A program made the position numbers and the translations under genes. A stretch of 64,000 bases of DNA, taken from contig JBDOQK010000004.1 in assembly GCA_040437565.1 (NCBI GenBank), positions 62,001 to 126,000 on the forward strand. Reading direction: 5' to 3'. The first letter of the stretch is position 1. Every line of letters begins with the position of its first letter. The notes beneath the pieces were generated by a model. That model saw nothing but the letters and a program-made list of their open reading frames with translations. It searched no databases and was not told the origin of the DNA. Origin of the DNA: Albugo candida. Lineage: Eukaryota. Positions 2,241-49,376 of this stretch are shown here, one piece after another.

Positions 2241-3764
2241 AATGATGCAGATGCAGTAATATTCCTTTTTGATATAGAGATCCTGCACGTGATCCTTAAC
2301 TGTCGGATGAAATCGTCGAATATATTGTGATATTTAACCGAGCCAATCGTAAAGTCGAGAACGTCTCAAATTCGTGATGATTGGTCAGTATGGTACCATA
2401 GGAAGGCGTCGCAAGGTGAATCGATGCATTGCAGCATCAGATTGACGAATCAGAAGATCGGCGACATGCACCCTATGCTTCCTTGTAACCGTTCTTCTAC
2501 AAAATCTTCTGCGATTTGCAGAGCTAAAACCGTACGGAAATTCGGATGCCTTTTTTTGTCACAAATCGCTGACGTTGAGAAATAAGGACTCGCTTTGATG
2601 TCTGATTATCTATGTATCTGATGTGAAGGTTTGTGTGACCGTGAGTAAAGTATAGTCCACGCATAAAGGACCAAATGCTGCTACGACGCAAACATTGTCC
2701 ATGTCGCTAAAGTGCTTAAGAAATTTCCAATGAGCGTCAGATAGCGATCGCAAGAGATCAGCGACGTGGCGAACTCGAATCTTGAGATTGCACTCTATTA
2801 GGTCTACTTATAGCGCGACCAATTGCAGCTATAGTCTACGCCTGCATGATCGAGTGCACCCTTTTTCGCTTTACACGTGCGCTCTGTCACGGCCGCAACA
2901 CGAGAAATAGGGCGAATATAATGGCGACGGGAATTAGACTATCGAAGCACAATGCGTCAATTCGTTGCTGACGATGAAGTCAGTCTCGAGCAGAATGTCG
3001 AGAAATGTCTGGCTCGCTTTTTTTAGAGGTTGCGATCTACCTTCTCACTCACATTTTGTGATTAGCGGCCCGTGGGCGACTGTAAATCTTAATTAGTACT
3101 TATTATACTTTTCTTTCTATTAAAATACTAGTGTCTACATGATCAAGCGACATGTCAAGCATGATTACCTCCAAGCAATAATGCAAGCGCACGAGTGGGT
3201 TGTTCTTCATCAAGGTTGACGGCAATAAAAGAGCAATTCTGCGCCAAGGTCAAGATGAATTCCTGCAGCTGTCATGCACTTTGTCTTCTCAATTACCAAA
3301 CCTGACCGGTGAATTTTTGGCATTTAGCGACAGAGAACTTAAACTCGGATACCGCAAAACATTGTTTTGTTTCGACACAGATGCCTCATCTATTAACCGA
3401 CAAGGGGAATAAGAATAAAGGAAATAAGCGAAAAAAAGAGTTATATTAATTAGAGAAGAAATCAGCTGTTCCTACTTCGTACATTGATTTTTGTTGTCTC
3501 CTAATAGGCAATTTGTTTGATCTGACGTTGCAATTGTTCAATTATTTTGCGCAAGTTATCCACTTTGTATTGCAATTCATCATTTTCGAGTCTTAGTGCT
3601 TTGTTGAGTTTCTTGTAAAAGTTTGGTGAAGAGTCACCATCAATCGGTATCGGGACGCTTCGTAGCCATGCCATTGTTAGTTGAGACTTGTTTCAACTGT
3701 TTTCGGCATTTACCGAGTAGCCGTACTGCGTATTGATGTTCAGTCTGAACTTTTCTAGGCTAAT

Positions 3765-4900
3765 TGTTCGATCTTCCAGTTCGGATTCAGTGGATTCGAG
3801 TTGTACGGTAAGCTTTTCAACTGCGATTGTTTTGGGAAGTTGCCATAGCTTCCTGTTGCTGGATTTTGCATAGTTCGATCTTAATATAAGAATTCAACGA
3901 CAGGAAACGAGGCAACTGCGCAAAGGAATTATATTAAAAAGCTTACCGTGCAACTCGAAACCACAGAATCCGAACTGGAAGATTCGAACTATGCGATTTG
4001 TTTTGGCAGTTGCCGTAGCTTCCTGTTGCTGAATTCGCATAGTTCGATTTTCCAGCTCGGATTCAGTGGTTTCTAAAGAAAAAGGTCGCTTGAGCACTTA
4101 ATGGTAAAAAACAAAAATTGATTCACTAAGGTCCTTAGTTCTGTTGTAAGATCATGTGCATCGAGTGCCAGTAACCACCGCCGTGGAGAGACAGTGACTC
4201 TTACGACTGTGAAGATTTGCCCGAAGGAACCAGATCGAATGCGAGGAGCCGCGAGAGTAAAAGTTCTTTACTGTGAAGCTTCGCAATGTGCGTAATAAGG
4301 AACTCCTTCTAACTACATTCAATACATTTATTCCCCATTCTACTCTGTTGTTAACATCGTGCAGACCTTACAGTTTGCCAACAAGTTCGCCAACTCTGTT
4401 GCTACTCTAAGCCTTCAGCTACTTGATTCTCTACTTAATCTTGAGTTACCTTGTCCAATCAGCGACTGCCACGTCGATGCCCAATTTGAAACCGCTCTTG
4501 AAGCTGGCAACTTCGAGCAGTCATGAAGTGATGACTGCTTTAACCGGTACCTACCGGTATGTGTCAGCTGACCGAGGCGCTGCTTCTTCAACAGTTTCGA
4601 GTTGCACGGTAAGCTTTTCAATACAATTCCTTTGCGCAGTTGCCTCGTTTCCTGTCGTTGAATTCGCAAATGAAGATCAAACTATGCGAATCCAGCGACG
4701 GGAAGCTATGGCTACTGCATAAAACAATCGCAATTGAAAAGCTTACCGTACAACTCGAAACCACTGAATCCGAACTAGAAGATCGAACTATGCGAATTGA
4801 GCAACAGCAAGGTATGACACCTGCCCAAAACAAATCGCATAGTTCGATCTTCCAGTTACGATTAAGTCGATTTGAGCTGCAAGGCAAGCTTTTCGATATA
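3765..4900. repeat. ~105-bp coding minisatellite units in alternating orientation
   Basis: The unit GAACTGGAAGATCGAACTATGCGAAT...GAAAAGCTTACCGTACAACTCGAAACCACTGAATCC occurs on both strands. 3770-3960 is close to the reverse complement of 4594-4790. Confidence 0.85.
4074..4593 (-). mobile_element. Solo LTR-like insertion (Copia-type 5' end)
   Basis: 5-bp direct repeat GTTTC at 4069-4073 and 4594-4598; removing the insert restores a repeat unit (CAGTGGTTTCGAGTTG). The minus strand starts TGTTGAAG, contains AATAAA and ends ...CTTTA. Confidence 0.7.
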
Positions 4901-5869
4901 ATTTTTCTGAGCGGCTGCCTCAGCCACTTGCCGTTCAAGTTGCGTTGATTGCATTTCATTCATTTTTGCAAGCTCAACGAGCGCCTCGTTCTGACGAGTA
5001 AAGGCTGACTCAGTTTGAGCCTTCGAAGCCCTGAGATGACCAATCTCTCTTCTGAGCGACTCGTTTTCTTTACGGAGTCTCTGGAGCTCAATTTTTGTGG
5101 TCGCTGGAGTTGCCGCCCGGGTGCGCTGATGTGGCTGCTCCTGAATTGGAACATAGCCACCACCAACGCGGCGCATGTTANNNNNNNNNNNNNNNNNNNN
5201 NNNNNNNNNNNNNNNNNNNNNNNNNNNNNNNNNNNNNNNNNNNNNNNNNNNNNNNNNNNNNNNNNNNNNNNNNNNNNNNNGGCTGACTCAGTTTGAGCCT
5301 TCGAAGCCCTGAGATGACCAATCTCTCTTCTGAGCGACTCGTTTTCTTTACGGAGTCTCTGGAGCTCAATTTTTGTGGTCGCTGGAGTTGCCGCCCGGGT
5401 GCGCTGATGTGGCTGCTCCTGAATTGGAACATAGCCACCACCAACGCGGCGCATGTTAAAAGGTGTTAGTCGTGTAGGTTGTCGGATACTCATGTTGTAG
5501 CTGATTTGAAAGTGATATTGGAAGCAGTCAGATGATAAGCATAGAAGACGAAAGAATACGAGAGAAGAAAAAGAACAGCATCATATTGAGCTTTTTATCA
5601 AAGAATTCGGCTTCTCCATTTCCTATAGTAGTTCCTAGTATCGTGATGATACCGCCGAAGGCCCTTGGATTGAGAATTCAGCGGATATATATTAGATGGG
5701 AATTGATTAATTCAAATTTTAGTTGATGGTAAATGACCAGAAATGGAAGTACAATGAAGGAATCGTTTATGGAAGGGAAGGTAAGAAGTTATGTTGTATG
5801 TTGCTGCAATTGGCGACACAGTATTGTACTTGTAACTTATTTCATTTATGTTATGTGTAATGCTTAAAT

Positions 5870-7000
5870 ACTTGATCAACTTGATCATCGACTATTCTCT
5901 CACTACGTTCCAATGCAGACATTCGATTCACGTACTCGTCTTTTCTAGTCGCTACTACACGTATCGGTTGTATACTGCTGTCCATGATCCGGAGGATGGG
6001 TCTTCACGCACCCTCATCGCCGATAGTATTTAATATATCGCAGCGCGTCGTGGGGGTCGAGTAATTGTGCTCCACGAATTGAAGTGTCCTCTGCTAAAAC
6101 TTTGACATCCACTTGAGCTTCGACTTGTGGATACACACACACCAATGCTCGCGCTTGAATTGAAAAAATCGGTTGGCCGATATCTTTTGCACGACCGGAG
6201 CTTTTCACATTTGATGCGACGTGTGCTTAGCGTCTGCGTGTACATTGCAGAAAAGTAGGATGACAGCAGCGAGCTTGCGCAAGTGCGTATGCGGAACAAT
6301 CGCGGTAGACGTAAACGTCTTTTTCCTCGAATGCTTGGACCAGCCTTCCGTTTCACTTTGTGACGAGCATTTCACGTCAAGTGATATGACTTCTAGGGCT
6401 GCTAGCTCAGATGAGAACCAAAACCGACGAGCGTTTGCTAGGCGCCTCAAAAATTGATGTCTCTGAATCATAAGCATTCGACTCAGCTCCAAACTATTGC
6501 CTCAATCCGTTCCCTCCAAGGCCCCTTGCGACGTAAGTTCTTCGATGACTAGCAGACATTCATTCGTTGGAAGCACGTATTTCGCGCGCATGTACATATC
6601 CCTCAAATTCGTATCGAGAGTATGCCAAAGGGCGTTGGAGTGTCGACGGCATCAAAGAGATGAGGGGAGTATCTGCGAGCTCTTCCCAGTTTGTGGCACA
6701 AAAACGGTTTTTCGAGATCGCCTGTGCTCGAATCGATGTGCTTGGATTTTTGGCGTTGGAAGAGTGCGAATTCAAGTCAAGAAGAAAAGAATTTACAAAA
6801 GTAGTCCTGTCTACGTGATTAGTGAAGTCAGCTATGTGTTCACTCGTTTCCGTTATAGTGGAGTTTACGTATTTGCGATTATTAAATAGTTGTATGAAAT
6901 GGAAAAGATACATGAATTATGTTGTGGTACACGAACTACAGATATTCTCTGCGTATGACCAAATACAGCCAATGGCTAAAGAAAGGGTTGGCGACGGATC
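5870..7000 (-). pseudogene. Degenerate gene relic 'partner A', copy 1
   Basis: Clearly homologous to 46690-48590. Broken minus-strand frames (ETSEHIADFTNHVDR..FVNS; IR.CASSLLS..F.AMYTQTL) show several synonymous differences between copies. Strand is tentative. Confidence 0.45.
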
Positions 7001-48590: not shown

Positions 48591-48720
48591 ATTCCCTGGG
48601 TCAAGGTCAATGCGGATTCCGCAAAACATTGTTTTGTTTCGGTACAAATGCCTCAGCAAAAGGGAATAAGAACCATAGAGAAATAAGCGAAAAAAATAGT
48701 TATATTAATTAGAAAAGAAA

Positions 48721-49100
48721 TTAGCTGTTCCTACTTCCTACATTGAGTTTATGTTGTCTACTAATAGTCAATTGTTTGATTTGACGTTGCAACTGTTCAT
48801 TTATTTTGCGCAAGTCATCCACTTTATGATGCAATTCATCATTTTCTAGTCGCAGTGCTTTATTAAGTTTTTGGTAAAAGTTTGGTGAAGTGTCACCCTC
48901 AACTGCTGATTCAGGACGCTTTGTAGCCACAATGCTACTTGTTGAGACTTGTTGTAACTTCTGTCGGTATTCACCGAGTAGCCGCGTTGCGTACTGANNN
49001 NNNNNNNNNNNNNNNNNNNNNNNNNNNNNNNNNNNNNNNNNNNNNNNNNNNNNNNNNNNNNNNNNNNNNNNNNNNNNNNNNNNNNNNNNNNNNNNNNTAT
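48721..49100 (-). CDS. Coiled-coil gene family, copy 5 (only the 3' end is visible; the body lies in the gap)
   Basis: Open 3' frame ...KVDDLRKINEQLQRQIKQLTISRQHKLNVGSRNS*, nearly identical to copy 4 on both sides of the gap. Confidence 0.6.
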
Positions 49101-49376
49101 CAAAGAATTCGGCTTCTCCATTTGCTATAGTAGTTCCTAGTATCGTGATGGTACCGCCGAAGGCCCTTGGATTGAGAAATCTACGGATATATATTAGATG
49201 GGAATTGACCAATTCAAATTTTAGTTGATGTTAAATGACCAGAAATGGAATCACTGTGATGGAATCGTTTTTGTATTTGTATTAATTGTAAGGAGGAGAT
49301 ATCTAGCACGTTGATGCATTGGAGCCCATTACTTTGGTGGTATCTTTATTCCGTGTAATTATCGGACAAATACTAG

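What the first reader, a model, noticed from the sequence alone, without database searches (positions are those of the whole stretch)
3462..49260. Dispersed, actively turning-over coiled-coil gene cassette family (5 copies in 46 kb)
Seen: homologous genes at 3462-5493(-), 20597-21690(+), 29515-30138(+), 45549(-) and 48721(-). They share an M(S/T)xR...P.(N/S)MR N-terminus, a 35-aa (5-heptad) repeat and a ...KALRLENDEL...SRNS C-terminus where visible. Four copies share a conserved non-coding 5' flank and sit beside one of two partner relics (A or B). Ages range from near-identical (copies 4 and 5) to barely alignable (copy 3). There is no signal peptide and no transposase or RT. Every accessory patch in the window contains a copy. 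Inference: a lineage-specific birth-and-death cassette, possibly a selfish or driver-like element, or cargo of a non-autonomous mobile unit. I do not recognise the family.
Basis: partly seen in the sequence, partly recalled or inferred. Interest (0 to 1): 0.72.

Follow-up and report, generated by a model that had tools for sequence, protein, structure and literature searches.

The report
Albugo-only coiled-coil gene family, mostly decaying copies
The window holds five copies (three broken, two probably whole but hidden by assembly gaps) of a small coiled-coil protein gene found only in white-rust oomycetes (Albugo), which looks like ordinary local duplication, gene conversion and decay rather than a jumping or selfish element.

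Summary
All five copies are real at the stated coordinates. Four are clear by DNA. Copy 3 is a weak but collinear protein-level match.

They belong to an unnamed family of about 230-aa proteins. The family has no signal peptide and no Pfam family above cut-off. A profile search of 1.84 billion representatives gave 13 hits. Every hit that a source names is Albugo candida or A. laibachii.

Intact relatives carry the "35-aa repeat" once. Only copy 1 has it multiplied: six fragments, two of them antisense, with stops and a frameshift. Copies 1, 2 and 3 are pseudogenes. Copies 4 and 5 are open where visible, and their middles lie in 100-N gaps.

- Copies 1 and 4 share the decayed flank A. Copies 2 and 5 share flank B.
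- Identity between copies is mosaic: copy 4 versus copy 5 is 100% for about 180 nt and then 32-85%.
- No transposase, reverse transcriptase or consistent terminal repeats were found.

Best reading: a genus-restricted multigene family evolving by segmental duplication, gene conversion and decay. A mobile or selfish nature is neither supported nor excluded. Protein function is unknown; a parallel homodimeric coiled coil is predicted.

The parts
3462..5493 (-). Copy 1, a pseudogene. The N-terminal 113 codons are intact once the artefactual gap and duplicate (5181-5458) are collapsed. Then come two in-frame stops, scrambled unit fragments, about 520 nt of unrelated spacer, a frameshift in the linker and a premature stop 13 codons before the family stop.
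   Evidence: 92-96% aa identity to P0001 over the N-terminus
3763..4945 (-). Rearranged middle of copy 1. There are six fragments of the roughly 105-nt (35-aa) unit in the order sense-antisense-sense (4945-4596), spacer (4595-4068), sense-antisense-sense (4067-3763).
   Evidence: unit blastn; 3763-3961 vs 4791-4594, 90%, inverted
5494..5771 (-). Shared non-coding 5' flank of copy 1, probably promoter plus 5'UTR. The part from 5596 to 5771 is shared with copies 4, 5 and 2.
3346..3461 (-). Shared 3' flank of copy 1. About 50 nt are common to all four copies. The stretch down to 3346 is shared with copy 5 only.
5858..7004 (.). Partner relic A, upstream of copy 1. It matches 46686-48595 at 76-79%. 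It evolves like non-coding DNA: 237 substitutions without codon-position bias, and 19 gap runs that are mostly not multiples of 3.
20597..21688 (+). Copy 2, a pseudogene. It has a deletion of about residues 25-56 with a frame change, unrelated inserted sequence around a 100-N gap, further frame changes and two in-frame stops in the C-terminal part. The counterpart in another isolate's contigs is also split (P0013, P0014).
19854..20596 (+). Partner relic B (19854-20258) plus the 5' flank of copy 2 (20259-20596). The stretch 19854-20394 matches 49675-49134 at 82.6%. It has nine 1-2-nt indels and no codon bias.
29515..30138 (+). Copy 3, an old divergent member. It consists of a 121-codon N-terminal ORF, a decayed middle and a C-terminal relic (IIQLQATKKKLQRQIRR) in the same frame. 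It is closest to the P0012/P0017/P0023 branch. The same truncated ORF occurs in another isolate's contig (P0024, 99%). A contig of the RNA run X14 covers the stretch up to about 30152.
45552..45798 (-). Copy 4, visible C-terminal 82 codons, open to the family stop. The rest lies in the 100-N gap 45799-45898, which has no flanking duplicate. It is 96% identical to the intact 204-aa A. candida protein P0001, its likely counterpart.
45899..46165 (-). 5' flank of copy 4.
46166..46685 (.). Insertion of a moderately repeated element between the flank of copy 4 and partner A'; it is absent at the copy 1 locus. Read depth is about 6-7 times single copy. Contigs of all four runs break at both borders. 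TA is present on both sides.
46686..48595 (.). Partner relic A'. It lies between the 3' end of copy 5 and the flank of copy 4. It includes the artefactual duplicate 47574-48250.
48724..48997 (-). Copy 5, visible C-terminal 91 codons, open to the family stop. The rest lies in the gap 48998-49097. A DNA contig's loose end beyond 48997 continues the frame for 10 more codons (my own translation of the 30 letters printed).
49098..49675 (-). 5' flank of copy 5 (49098-49273) and partner relic B' (to 49675).

Best explanation
WHAT THE COPIES ARE. The five copies belong to an undescribed multigene family restricted, as far as the searches reach, to the white-rust oomycetes Albugo candida and A. laibachii.

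An intact gene is a single exon of about 690 nt. Its parts, in order:
- a polar, basic N-terminal head of about 40 residues with the motif P-x-N-M-R/K-R-V-G-G-G-Y;
- a helix of about 120 residues;
- a short linker;
- a second helix of about 45 residues;
- a conserved tail ending GSRNS.

The protein is predicted to form a parallel, in-register homodimeric coiled coil. It has no signal peptide. I infer a cytoplasmic or nuclear scaffold or adaptor whose conserved ends bind partners. This function is inference only.

HOW THE LOCUS EVOLVED. The dynamics look like ordinary DNA-level turnover.
- A tandem pair, B'-copy5-A'-copy4, lies at 45-50 kb.
- Copy 1 with A, and copy 2 with B, are older segmental copies of its two halves, placed between housekeeping genes on the same scaffold.
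- Gene conversion or recombination has homogenised parts of copies 1, 4 and 5, chiefly the 5' flank and adjoining coding sequence.
- Copies 1 and 2 decayed through stops, frameshifts, deletions and, in copy 1, an inverted-triplication type scrambling of one 35-aa segment.
- Copy 3 is a relic of a second, older branch of the family.

SHOWN: homology, genus restriction of the hits, lesions, co-duplicated flanks, mosaic identity.
INFERRED: direction and order of the duplications, intactness of copies 4 and 5, protein role.
For: FAMILY AND RANGE
- 7 A. candida proteins were found by word search.
- The profile search of 1,835,955,588 representatives gave 13 hits at E<=0.001.
- I looked up 10 of these hits. 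The named ones are A. candida (2) or A. laibachii Nc14 (5 records across 4 clusters). The rest are unnamed short ENA or Logan contigs.
- No hit carries a name from outside Albugo.

INTACT MEMBERS
- Intact members are 204-237 aa, with conserved ends at only 30-42% identity across branches.

NO KNOWN FAMILY
- All Pfam matches are below the curated cut-offs.
- The best PDB sequence match has E 0.0053 and is a generic myosin coiled coil.
- Foldseek gave 0 matches.

STRUCTURE
- AF2 gives mean pLDDT 82, with helices at 40-162 and 178-222.
- Homodimer prediction gives ipSAE 0.54 against a best-of-3 control of 0.00. The runs agree in at least 70% of contacts and partner pLDDT is at least 69. Contacts are residue i to residue i with heptad spacing.
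- The tool's mark was reached by 21 of 30 solved homodimers and 0 of 23 solved single chains in microbes. In eukaryotes it was reached by 17 of 29 and 0 of 30.

DUPLICATION WITH FLANKS
- Identities are given.
- A and B evolve neutrally.
- The far end of A' lies 17 nt from the 3' flank of copy 5.

MOSAIC IDENTITY
- Copy 4 vs copy 5 in 60-nt windows: 1.0, 1.0, 0.97, 0.45, 0.85, 0.32.
- Copy 1 vs copy 5 in the same windows: 0.75, 0.68, 0.83, 0.90, 0.90, 0.67.
- Copy 1 vs copy 4: 5' flank 92.9%, against 76-79% in A and 72.8% in the 3' part.
- Copy 2 vs copy 5 is uniform at about 81-83%.

TREES
- Copy 4 groups with P0001 (support 98/93).
- The second branch (P0012, P0017, P0023) separates at 100/99.
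- The A. candida-type rows (9, comprising 6 named A. candida, the 2 window copies and the unlabelled P0009; support 91/98) sit apart from the A. laibachii-type rows (3, support 86/85).

LESIONS.

NO MOBILE-ELEMENT GENES OR RNA GENES IN THE WINDOW.
Against: - No whole genome was available. Copy number, synteny and empty sites between isolates could not be examined.
- The dispersal of other family members over contigs of different lengths is not explained by local duplication alone.
- The 5' boundary common to all four copies is fairly sharp and has two unrelated upstream contexts. Upstream similarity between the A and B types is not significant: 40-75 of 500 shuffles reach the observed score. 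A mobile unit would also show this pattern.
- Copy 4 is bracketed by repeated elements.
- The middles of copies 4 and 5 are unread, so their intactness rests on a likely counterpart (P0001) and one 10-codon loose end.
- The high conservation of the 5' flank could reflect constraint rather than conversion.
- The dimer prediction may reflect the generic tendency of heptad sequences to pair. The tool notes that only 1 of 7 eukaryotic cases without an older solved relative reached the mark.
- Copy 3's membership rests on weak scores.
Confidence: 0.7

Rival explanations
1. The cassette (5' flank, gene and about 50 nt of 3' flank, roughly 1 kb) is the cargo or body of a non-autonomous DNA element. 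It would be mobilised in trans, for example by a Helitron- or MULE-like element, which would explain its spread over many contigs.
For: - Family members lie on contigs of different recorded lengths.
- A common 5' boundary is followed by two unrelated upstream contexts, A and B.
- Repeated elements abut copy 4.
- One 13-nt inverted pair sits at the two ends of copy 2: 20254-20266 and 21804-21816.
Against: - That inverted pair is AT-rich and partly self-palindromic. It is absent at copy 4 (0 pairs) and at copy 5, whose single pair lies elsewhere.
- No target-site duplications or constant termini are seen at the ends.
- The unit equals a plausible transcription unit.
- Kilobase-scale neighbouring DNA was co-duplicated with the copies.
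- There is no transposase, reverse transcriptase or helicase in the window.
Confidence: 0.12
2. The copies are retrogenes: reverse-transcribed mRNAs inserted by LINE machinery.
For: - The gene is intron-less and small.
- The homology common to all copies ends about 50 nt after the stop codon.
- Copy 2 has an A9 run there.
Against: - About 280 nt of upstream non-coding sequence is shared, which is long for an oomycete 5'UTR. That length comparison is my own recalled knowledge.
- No poly-A tract is present in copies 1, 4 or 5.
- Flanks A and B were copied along with the gene.
Confidence: 0.05
3. The family is a selfish, driver-like gene (for example a killer or poison-antidote type) that spreads by distorting transmission. 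Its turnover would reflect arms races.
For: Only circumstantial evidence exists:
- the family is genus-restricted and multi-copy;
- pseudogenes are frequent;
- paralogues are mosaic.
Against: - There is no second overlapping product, no transmembrane or toxin-like part, and no similarity to any known driver.
- The same features fit any fast-evolving gene family.
Confidence: 0.03
4. Much of the pattern is an assembly artefact of a gapped short-read scaffold.
For: - 15 of 21 N-runs are flanked by exact duplicates.
- DNA contigs join across four of them.
- The doubled N-terminus of copy 1 and half of A' are such artefacts.
Against: - The five copies differ from each other by 3-28% or more, so they cannot be collapsed or duplicated reads.
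- The inverted unit fragments of copy 1 are 77-90% alike, not identical.
- Independent protein records reproduce copies 2, 3, 4 and 5.
Confidence: 0.02

Closest known systems
Uncharacterised Albugo proteins of the same family: A. candida 'unnamed protein product' records (P0001-P0006, CCI10056.1), KAL0591695.1 and ABG067_005584; A. laibachii Nc14 CCA14031.1, CCA26318.1, CCA16193.1, CCA22299.1 and CCA28123.1
   Same: - Direct sequence relatives: 60-96% identity for the A. candida records and 30-42% for the A. laibachii records.
- They share the same N-terminal motif, helices and GSRNS tail.
   Different: - None has a name, a function or a paper.
- Several are fragments or mis-joined gene models. 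KAL0591695.1 splices the tails of copies 5 and 4 into one product.
CCG and CHxC effector gene clusters of Albugo (bioRxiv 10.1101/2021.03.29.437041; passages read through a term search)
   Same: - Both are Albugo gene families expanded differently in A. candida and A. laibachii.
- That paper proposes that its clusters arose by segmental duplication through unequal crossovers.
   Different: - Those proteins are secreted effector candidates defined by a CCG or CHxC motif.
- This family has a polar N-terminus without a hydrophobic signal segment, no such motif, and is almost all coiled coil.
- The word 'coiled' occurs 0 times in that paper's main text.
Generic parallel dimeric coiled-coil scaffold or adaptor proteins (best sub-threshold Pfam hit: Cnn_1N, centrosomin motif 1)
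   Same: It shares a long uninterrupted heptad helix, a predicted in-register parallel homodimer and short conserved terminal motifs.
   Different: - Cnn_1N scores 23.7 bits against a cut-off of 28.5, for one of four proteins; the others score lower.
- There is no PDB or Foldseek match.
- The resemblance is one of composition, not shown kinship.
Gene-carrying non-autonomous transposons (Helitrons, Pack-MULEs)
   Same: Both show dispersed copies of a gene-sized unit with conserved non-coding flanks.
   Different: No terminal inverted repeats, target-site duplications or Helitron-type ends were seen at the copy borders. Neighbouring DNA was co-duplicated with the copies.
Inverted triplication flanked by duplications (the 'DUP-TRP/INV-DUP' pattern, attributed to replication template switching). 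The name is recalled from human genomics and comes from no call.
   Same: Copy 1 shows twice the order sense-antisense-sense for one roughly 105-nt segment.
   Different: The scale here is about 100 nt inside a dead gene. The mechanism was not tested.

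Membership tests
Albugo coiled-coil family (unnamed; defined here by alignments A1 and A4) | Significant sequence match to the family profile or its members | tested here: met
   - Copies 1, 2, 4 and 5: tblastn E-values from 1e-29 to 1e-60.
- Copy 3: weak only, with hhalign probability 51% and tblastn E-values of 0.001-0.02, collinear.
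Albugo coiled-coil family (unnamed; defined here by alignments A1 and A4) | N-terminal P-x-N-M-R/K-R-V-G-G-G-Y head and C-terminal GSRNS tail | tested here: met
   - Head: present in copies 1 and 2, partial in copy 3 (PANMR).
- Tail: present in copies 2, 4 and 5. In copy 1 it follows a premature stop. It is absent in copy 3.
- Sources.
Multigene family evolving by birth-and-death with gene conversion | Several paralogues including pseudogenes; species-specific groups in trees; mosaic identity between paralogues | tested here: met
   - 3 of the 5 window copies are broken.
- Trees.
- 60-nt identity profiles.
Non-autonomous DNA transposon or Helitron cargo | Constant termini (TIRs or 5'-TC...CTRR-3' with hairpin) and target-site duplications at the copy borders | tested here: not met
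   - No inverted pair is common to the copies.
- The borders were inspected.
- Only four borders in one window were examined.
Non-autonomous DNA transposon or Helitron cargo | Empty-site polymorphism or copies inserted at unrelated sites genome-wide | not testable with these tools
   No genome is held. The metagenome scan found no relative.
Retrogene | Poly-A tail at the 3' border and absence of the parental promoter | tested here: not met
   - No poly-A tract in copies 1, 4 and 5.
- About 280 nt of upstream sequence is shared.
Secreted Albugo effectors (CCG, CHxC) | N-terminal signal peptide followed by the CCG or CHxC motif | tested here: not met
   - The N-termini read MNTRQTTRNSRLTPANMRRVGGGY..., which is polar and basic with no hydrophobic run and no such motif.
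- This was judged by eye; no signal-peptide program was run.
Pfam Cnn_1N (centrosomin motif 1) and other named coiled-coil families | Score at or above Pfam's gathering cut-off | tested here: not met
   The best score is 23.7 bits against a cut-off of 28.5. All listed matches for the 4 proteins are below cut-off.

The most novel reading that the evidence does not exclude
The roughly 1-kb cassette would be a self-contained unit that Albugo genomes copy to new sites by an unrecognised route. The shared 5' flank would be its functional end. The coiled-coil protein would serve its own propagation, or would act as a non-classically delivered, fast-evolving host-interaction factor. In this reading the 93-97% conservation of the non-coding flank, against 73-85% in coding sequence, is constraint on the element and not gene conversion.
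Probability: 0.08. Interest if true: 0.65.

Novelty: new member of a known kind. Interest (0 to 1): 0.3.

Why it matters
- The report names and delimits an unannotated protein family of white-rust pathogens that appears restricted to the genus. Existing records call its members only 'unnamed' or 'hypothetical'.
- At least one public gene model fuses two copies into a false spliced product.
- The locus is a compact example of duplication, gene conversion and several modes of decay among housekeeping genes in a small obligate-biotroph genome.
- If the family proves to be expressed at a particular life stage, it would be a handle on Albugo-specific cell biology.
- As it stands it is an ordinary orphan gene family with no evidence of a new mechanism.

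Tried and rejected
- **Whole genome:** none is held. Genome-wide copy counts and synteny were therefore impossible.
- **RNA evidence, run listing:** no RNA holder is listed for 40000-49900.
- **RNA evidence, run X14:** it proved to be RNA, with GT..AG joints. It has almost no depth over the visible part of copy 4 (0.6) and low depth over the bins holding copy 5 (5-6). Contig depth cannot rank genes, so I draw no conclusion on expression of copies 4 and 5.
- **RNA evidence, run X19:** its nature is unclear, with no splice joints among the rows shown.
- **JGI metagenome scan with A1:** 522 pattern matches, none confirmed. The scan with A4 was not possible because no conserved stretch was available.
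- **ESM Atlas:** only generic unnamed bacterial clusters and one Spindly cluster, scores 0.92-0.94, shared features 123-140 of 256. I treat these as composition-level look-alikes.
- **Foldseek PDB:** 0 matches.
- **PDB sequences:** nothing below E 0.005.
- **Pfam on partner ORFs:** nothing at E<=0.001 in the 10 ORFs scanned.
- **RNA genes:** 0 tRNAs and 0 Rfam matches in the window, so the conserved 5' flank is no known RNA.
- **Partner A versus B:** no similarity at word size 7.
- **Terminal inverted repeats:** none is consistent across copies.
- **Earlier notes of this scan:** none on this family, by place, sequence or words.
- **Literature:** three full-text searches.
  - One search listed 15 of 37 papers; those listed use 'coiled-coil' for plant NLRs.
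  - In one search the 10 of 39 rows listed were unrelated 'abg067' hits and showed no occurrence of any of the five A. laibachii gene names.
  - I found no description of the family, but supplements of bioRxiv papers are closed and may list these genes.
- **dN/dS:** considered and dropped. Only short, partly broken or recombinant coding stretches are available as DNA.

Full report
**Setting**

The window is gene-dense eukaryotic DNA with about 38-47% G+C. Its long ORFs encode housekeeping proteins, among them a phosphagen kinase, ATAD3, NPL4, PP2C, a class II tRNA synthetase, Gpi16, V-ATPase C and FKBP.

Every named relative of the gene studied here is from Albugo candida or A. laibachii. This agrees with earlier notes on this genome.

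The scaffold contains 21 runs of exactly 100 N. Fifteen are flanked by exactly duplicated sequence of 16-677 nt. DNA contigs of two other runs join straight across four such gaps: 33623>33844, 39122>39259, 41932>42347 and 44055>44308. These gap-plus-duplicate structures are therefore scaffolding artefacts and must be collapsed mentally.

**The observation**

Self-blastn confirms four paralogous units:
- copy 1: 3346-5771 (-)
- copy 2: 20259-21780 (+)
- copy 4: 45465-46165 (-)
- copy 5: 48613-49273 (-)

Identities between the units:

| Pair | 5' flank | 3' coding part plus flank |
|---|---|---|
| copy 1 vs 4 | 92.9% (267 nt) | 72.8% |
| copy 1 vs 5 | 92.0% | 81.7% |
| copy 4 vs 5 | 96.6% | 85.2% |
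| copy 1 vs 2 | 81% | 78.6% |
| copy 2 vs 5 | within the B match (82.6%) | 80.7% |

- The core common to all four copies runs from about 280 nt upstream of the ATG to about 50 nt past the stop.
- Upstream of that core, copies 1 and 4 share partner A (76-79%) and copies 2 and 5 share partner B (82.6%).
- A and B are unrelated to each other.
- The 100 nt just beyond the common border are not significantly alike between the A and B types: 40-75 of 500 shuffles reach the observed score.
- Both partners evolve as non-coding DNA. A has 237 substitutions evenly spread over codon positions and 19 gap runs, mostly not multiples of three. B has nine 1-2-nt indels and no codon bias.
- Pfam found nothing at E<=0.001 in 10 partner ORFs.

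**Copy 3**

Copy 3 is not alignable as DNA.
- Its 121-codon ORF aligns to the family profile at the same N-terminal position. hhalign gives probability 51% and pairwise E 1.5e-4, matching PRMKPANMR to SRLTPANMRR and IERLRGENLILK to LQRLRKENESLR.
- tblastn with divergent members hits both ends collinearly and in one frame: P0012 residues 53-99 and 196-230, and P0017/P0023 at 54-62% over 24 aa.
- I accept it as an old member of a second branch, with moderate confidence.
- The same truncated ORF (99% identity) is present in another isolate's contig.

**What the gene is**

- Word-based searches found seven A. candida proteins: four are 204-230 aa and three are fragments of about 139 aa.
- A profile of these, run over 1,835,955,588 representatives, gave 13 hits at E<=0.001.
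- Of the 10 hits I looked up, the named ones are A. candida or A. laibachii Nc14. The rest are short unnamed ENA or Logan contigs. No hit carries a name from outside Albugo.
- Members lie on contigs of different recorded lengths (118,559; 75,458; 41,712; 129,266; 14,587; 123,696; 93,546; 317,095; 923,722), so the family is not confined to this locus.
- Divergent full-length members (P0012, 237 aa; P0019, 232 aa) are only 30-42% identical to P0002.
  - P0012 keeps both the N-terminal P-x-N-M-R/K-R-V-G-G-G-Y head and the C-terminal GSRNS tail.
  - P0019 keeps neither: it starts MVEQFAV... and ends ...FLVIK.
  - Both keep the internal ELxRLRxENxxL and FxKxxNKAL blocks.
  - Conservation of these blocks at such low identity argues that intact members are under selection.
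- No Pfam family reaches its cut-off; the best is Cnn_1N at 23.7 bits against 28.5.
- The best PDB sequence match has E 0.0053 and is a generic myosin coiled coil. Foldseek returns nothing. The ESM Atlas returns only generic look-alikes.

**Predicted structure**

- AlphaFold2 on the 17-sequence alignment gives mean pLDDT 82.
- It shows a low-confidence head, a helix at 40-162, a linker at 163-177 and a helix at 178-222.
- Two copies are predicted to pair in parallel and in register, residue i with residue i, with heptad-spaced contacts over 43-155 and 176-218.
- ipSAE is 0.54 against a best-of-three control of 0.00. The runs agree in at least 70% of contacts and partner pLDDT is at least 69.
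- The tool's mark was reached by 21 of 30 solved homodimers and 0 of 23 single chains in microbes. In eukaryotes it was reached by 17 of 29 and 0 of 30, but by only 1 of 7 cases without an older solved relative.
- This supports a dimeric coiled coil but does not show it.
- The N-terminus is polar and basic with no hydrophobic run, so I see no signal peptide. This was judged by eye.

**State of the five copies**

*Copy 1.* The N-terminal 113 codons are 92-96% identical to P0001. After that the gene is wrecked:
- two in-frame stops inside the unit;
- six fragments of the roughly 105-nt unit in the order sense-antisense-sense, a spacer of about 520 nt, then sense-antisense-sense again (inverted match 3763-3961 vs 4791-4594 at 90%);
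- a frameshift in the linker and a premature stop 13 codons before the family stop.

The fragments are 77-90% alike, not identical, so this is real rearrangement and not mis-assembly.

*Copy 2.* It lacks about residues 25-56, changes frame several times, holds unrelated inserted sequence and has two in-frame stops. Its counterpart in another isolate's contigs is likewise split into P0014 and P0013.

*Copy 3.* It is truncated and decayed, as described above.

*Copies 4 and 5.*
- They are open over the 82 and 91 codons that can be read.
- Their gaps are among the six without an exact flanking duplicate, so real sequence is missing.
- Copy 4 is 96% identical to the intact A. candida protein P0001 and groups with it (98/93).
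- For copy 5, a DNA contig's loose end beyond 48997 continues the frame for ten codons matching the family (...DSLQKVKTEY; my translation of letters printed).
- I infer that both are probably intact.

*The 35-aa repeat.* The unit is single in intact relatives: self-blastp of four full-length proteins gives no internal match.

**How the copies arose**

- The far end of A' (48595) lies 17 nt from the end of the 3' flank of copy 5 (48613). The 45-50 kb locus therefore reads B'-copy5-A'-copy4.
- Copy 1 carries A and copy 2 carries B. The simplest model is that each is a segmental copy of one half of that array, placed 25-45 kb away among housekeeping genes.
- Divergence between copies 2 and 5 is uniform, about 81-83% in B, flank and 3' part. 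This fits a simple old duplication.
- Among copies 1, 4 and 5 the identity is mosaic.
  - Copy 4 vs copy 5 in 60-nt windows: 1.0, 1.0, 0.97, 0.45, 0.85, 0.32.
  - Copy 1 vs copy 5 over the same windows: 0.75, 0.68, 0.83, 0.90, 0.90, 0.67.
  - The copy 1 vs copy 4 flank is 93% identical beside 76-79% in A.
  - This is the signature of gene conversion or recombination between paralogues. Constraint on a promoter could add to it.
- In the C-terminal tree the second branch (P0012, P0017, P0023) separates at 100/99. The A. candida-type sequences (9 rows, comprising 6 named A. candida, the 2 window copies and the unlabelled P0009; 91/98) group apart from the A. laibachii-type ones (3 rows, 86/85). 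This fits species-specific expansion or homogenisation.

**Tests of the mobile-element idea**

- No transposase, reverse transcriptase or helicase domain was found in the 66 ORFs scanned.
- No tRNA or Rfam match was found.
- No inverted pair is common to the copy borders. A 13-nt AT-rich pair brackets copy 2 only.
- No poly-A, target-site duplication or constant terminus is seen at the borders.
- Read depth does show repeats beside copy 4.
  - The bin 44768-45433 has depth 4845 and 21411, against about 58 and 128 for single-copy sequence.
  - A 520-nt insert at 46166-46685 has 6-7 times depth, contig breaks at both borders in all four runs, and TA on both sides.
  - These repeats are not shared with the other copies.
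- Mobility is thus unsupported. It is not excluded, because no genome could be searched.

**Expression**

- Run X14 is RNA: it shows many GT..AG joints.
- One of its contigs covers copy 3 up to about 30152. The variant rows at 29828-30027 give the distances to the contig end.
- One loose end at 47322 reads on into sequence matching partner A of copy 1. This hints that relic A is transcribed.
- Nothing can be concluded about expression of copies 4 and 5.

**Comparison with what is known, and verdict**

- The nearest described phenomenon in Albugo is the clustered expansion of CCG/CHxC effector genes. The Ac2V preprint attributes it to segmental duplication by unequal crossovers and finds it differs between the two species (passages read).
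- The present family is a different, non-secreted, coiled-coil protein. It is not mentioned in that paper's main text, nor in the results of three literature searches.
- I file it as a new member of a known kind: an undescribed, genus-restricted multigene family undergoing ordinary duplication, conversion and decay.
- It has modest interest, mainly for annotation and as a lead into Albugo-specific biology.

Noticed in passing
window, all 21 N-runs (for example 5181-5280, 28649-28748, 47474-47573): Every gap is exactly 100 N, and 15 of 21 are flanked by exact duplicates of 16-677 nt. DNA contigs of other runs join across four of them. ORFs and repeats that straddle these gaps are artefactually doubled.
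   Followed up: yes
window 44768-45433 (contig breaks at about 45114, 45158 and 45400): A very high-copy sequence lies next to the 3' end of copy 4. Summed contig depth is 4845 and 21411, against about 58 and 128 for neighbouring single-copy DNA. It includes a 26-nt tandem repeat (2.2 copies) at 45375-45430. Its identity is unknown.
   Followed up: partly
window 46166-46685: A 520-nt insert has 6-7 times read depth and TA on both sides. It is absent from the homologous site at the copy 1 locus. It is probably a small repeated element. No terminal inverted repeat was seen by eye.
   Followed up: partly
window 6467-6886 and 47322: An RNA contig (run X14) laid on partner A' runs on, beyond 47322, into letters that match partner A at the copy 1 locus. 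The decayed relic A may therefore be transcribed.
   Followed up: no
window 52223-54598 (-): A 791-aa ORF has two complete ATP:guanido phosphotransferase units (N- and C-domains twice). The internal duplication is visible as DNA at 68-70% identity (52658-52861 vs 53825-54028). It is a contiguous two-domain phosphagen kinase.
   Followed up: no
window 20910-21210, with inverted repeat 21095-21121 / 21132-21158: Unrelated sequence of about 300 nt with a 27-nt hairpin (89% complementary) sits inside copy 2, between family residues about 78 and 91. It is possibly a small insertion.
   Followed up: no
protein record KAL0591695.1 (P0008) versus window 45256-49822: A public gene model splices the C-terminal tails of copies 5 and 4, plus bits of relic B' and of the repeat insert, into one 223-aa 'hypothetical protein'. 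This is almost certainly a false model.
   Followed up: partly
window 30621-32441 (-), 33925-34959 (+), 40751-41623 (+), 62153-63094 (+): Long ORFs of 290-606 aa have no Pfam match at E<=0.001. Some are covered by spliced RNA contigs. They were not studied.
   Followed up: no
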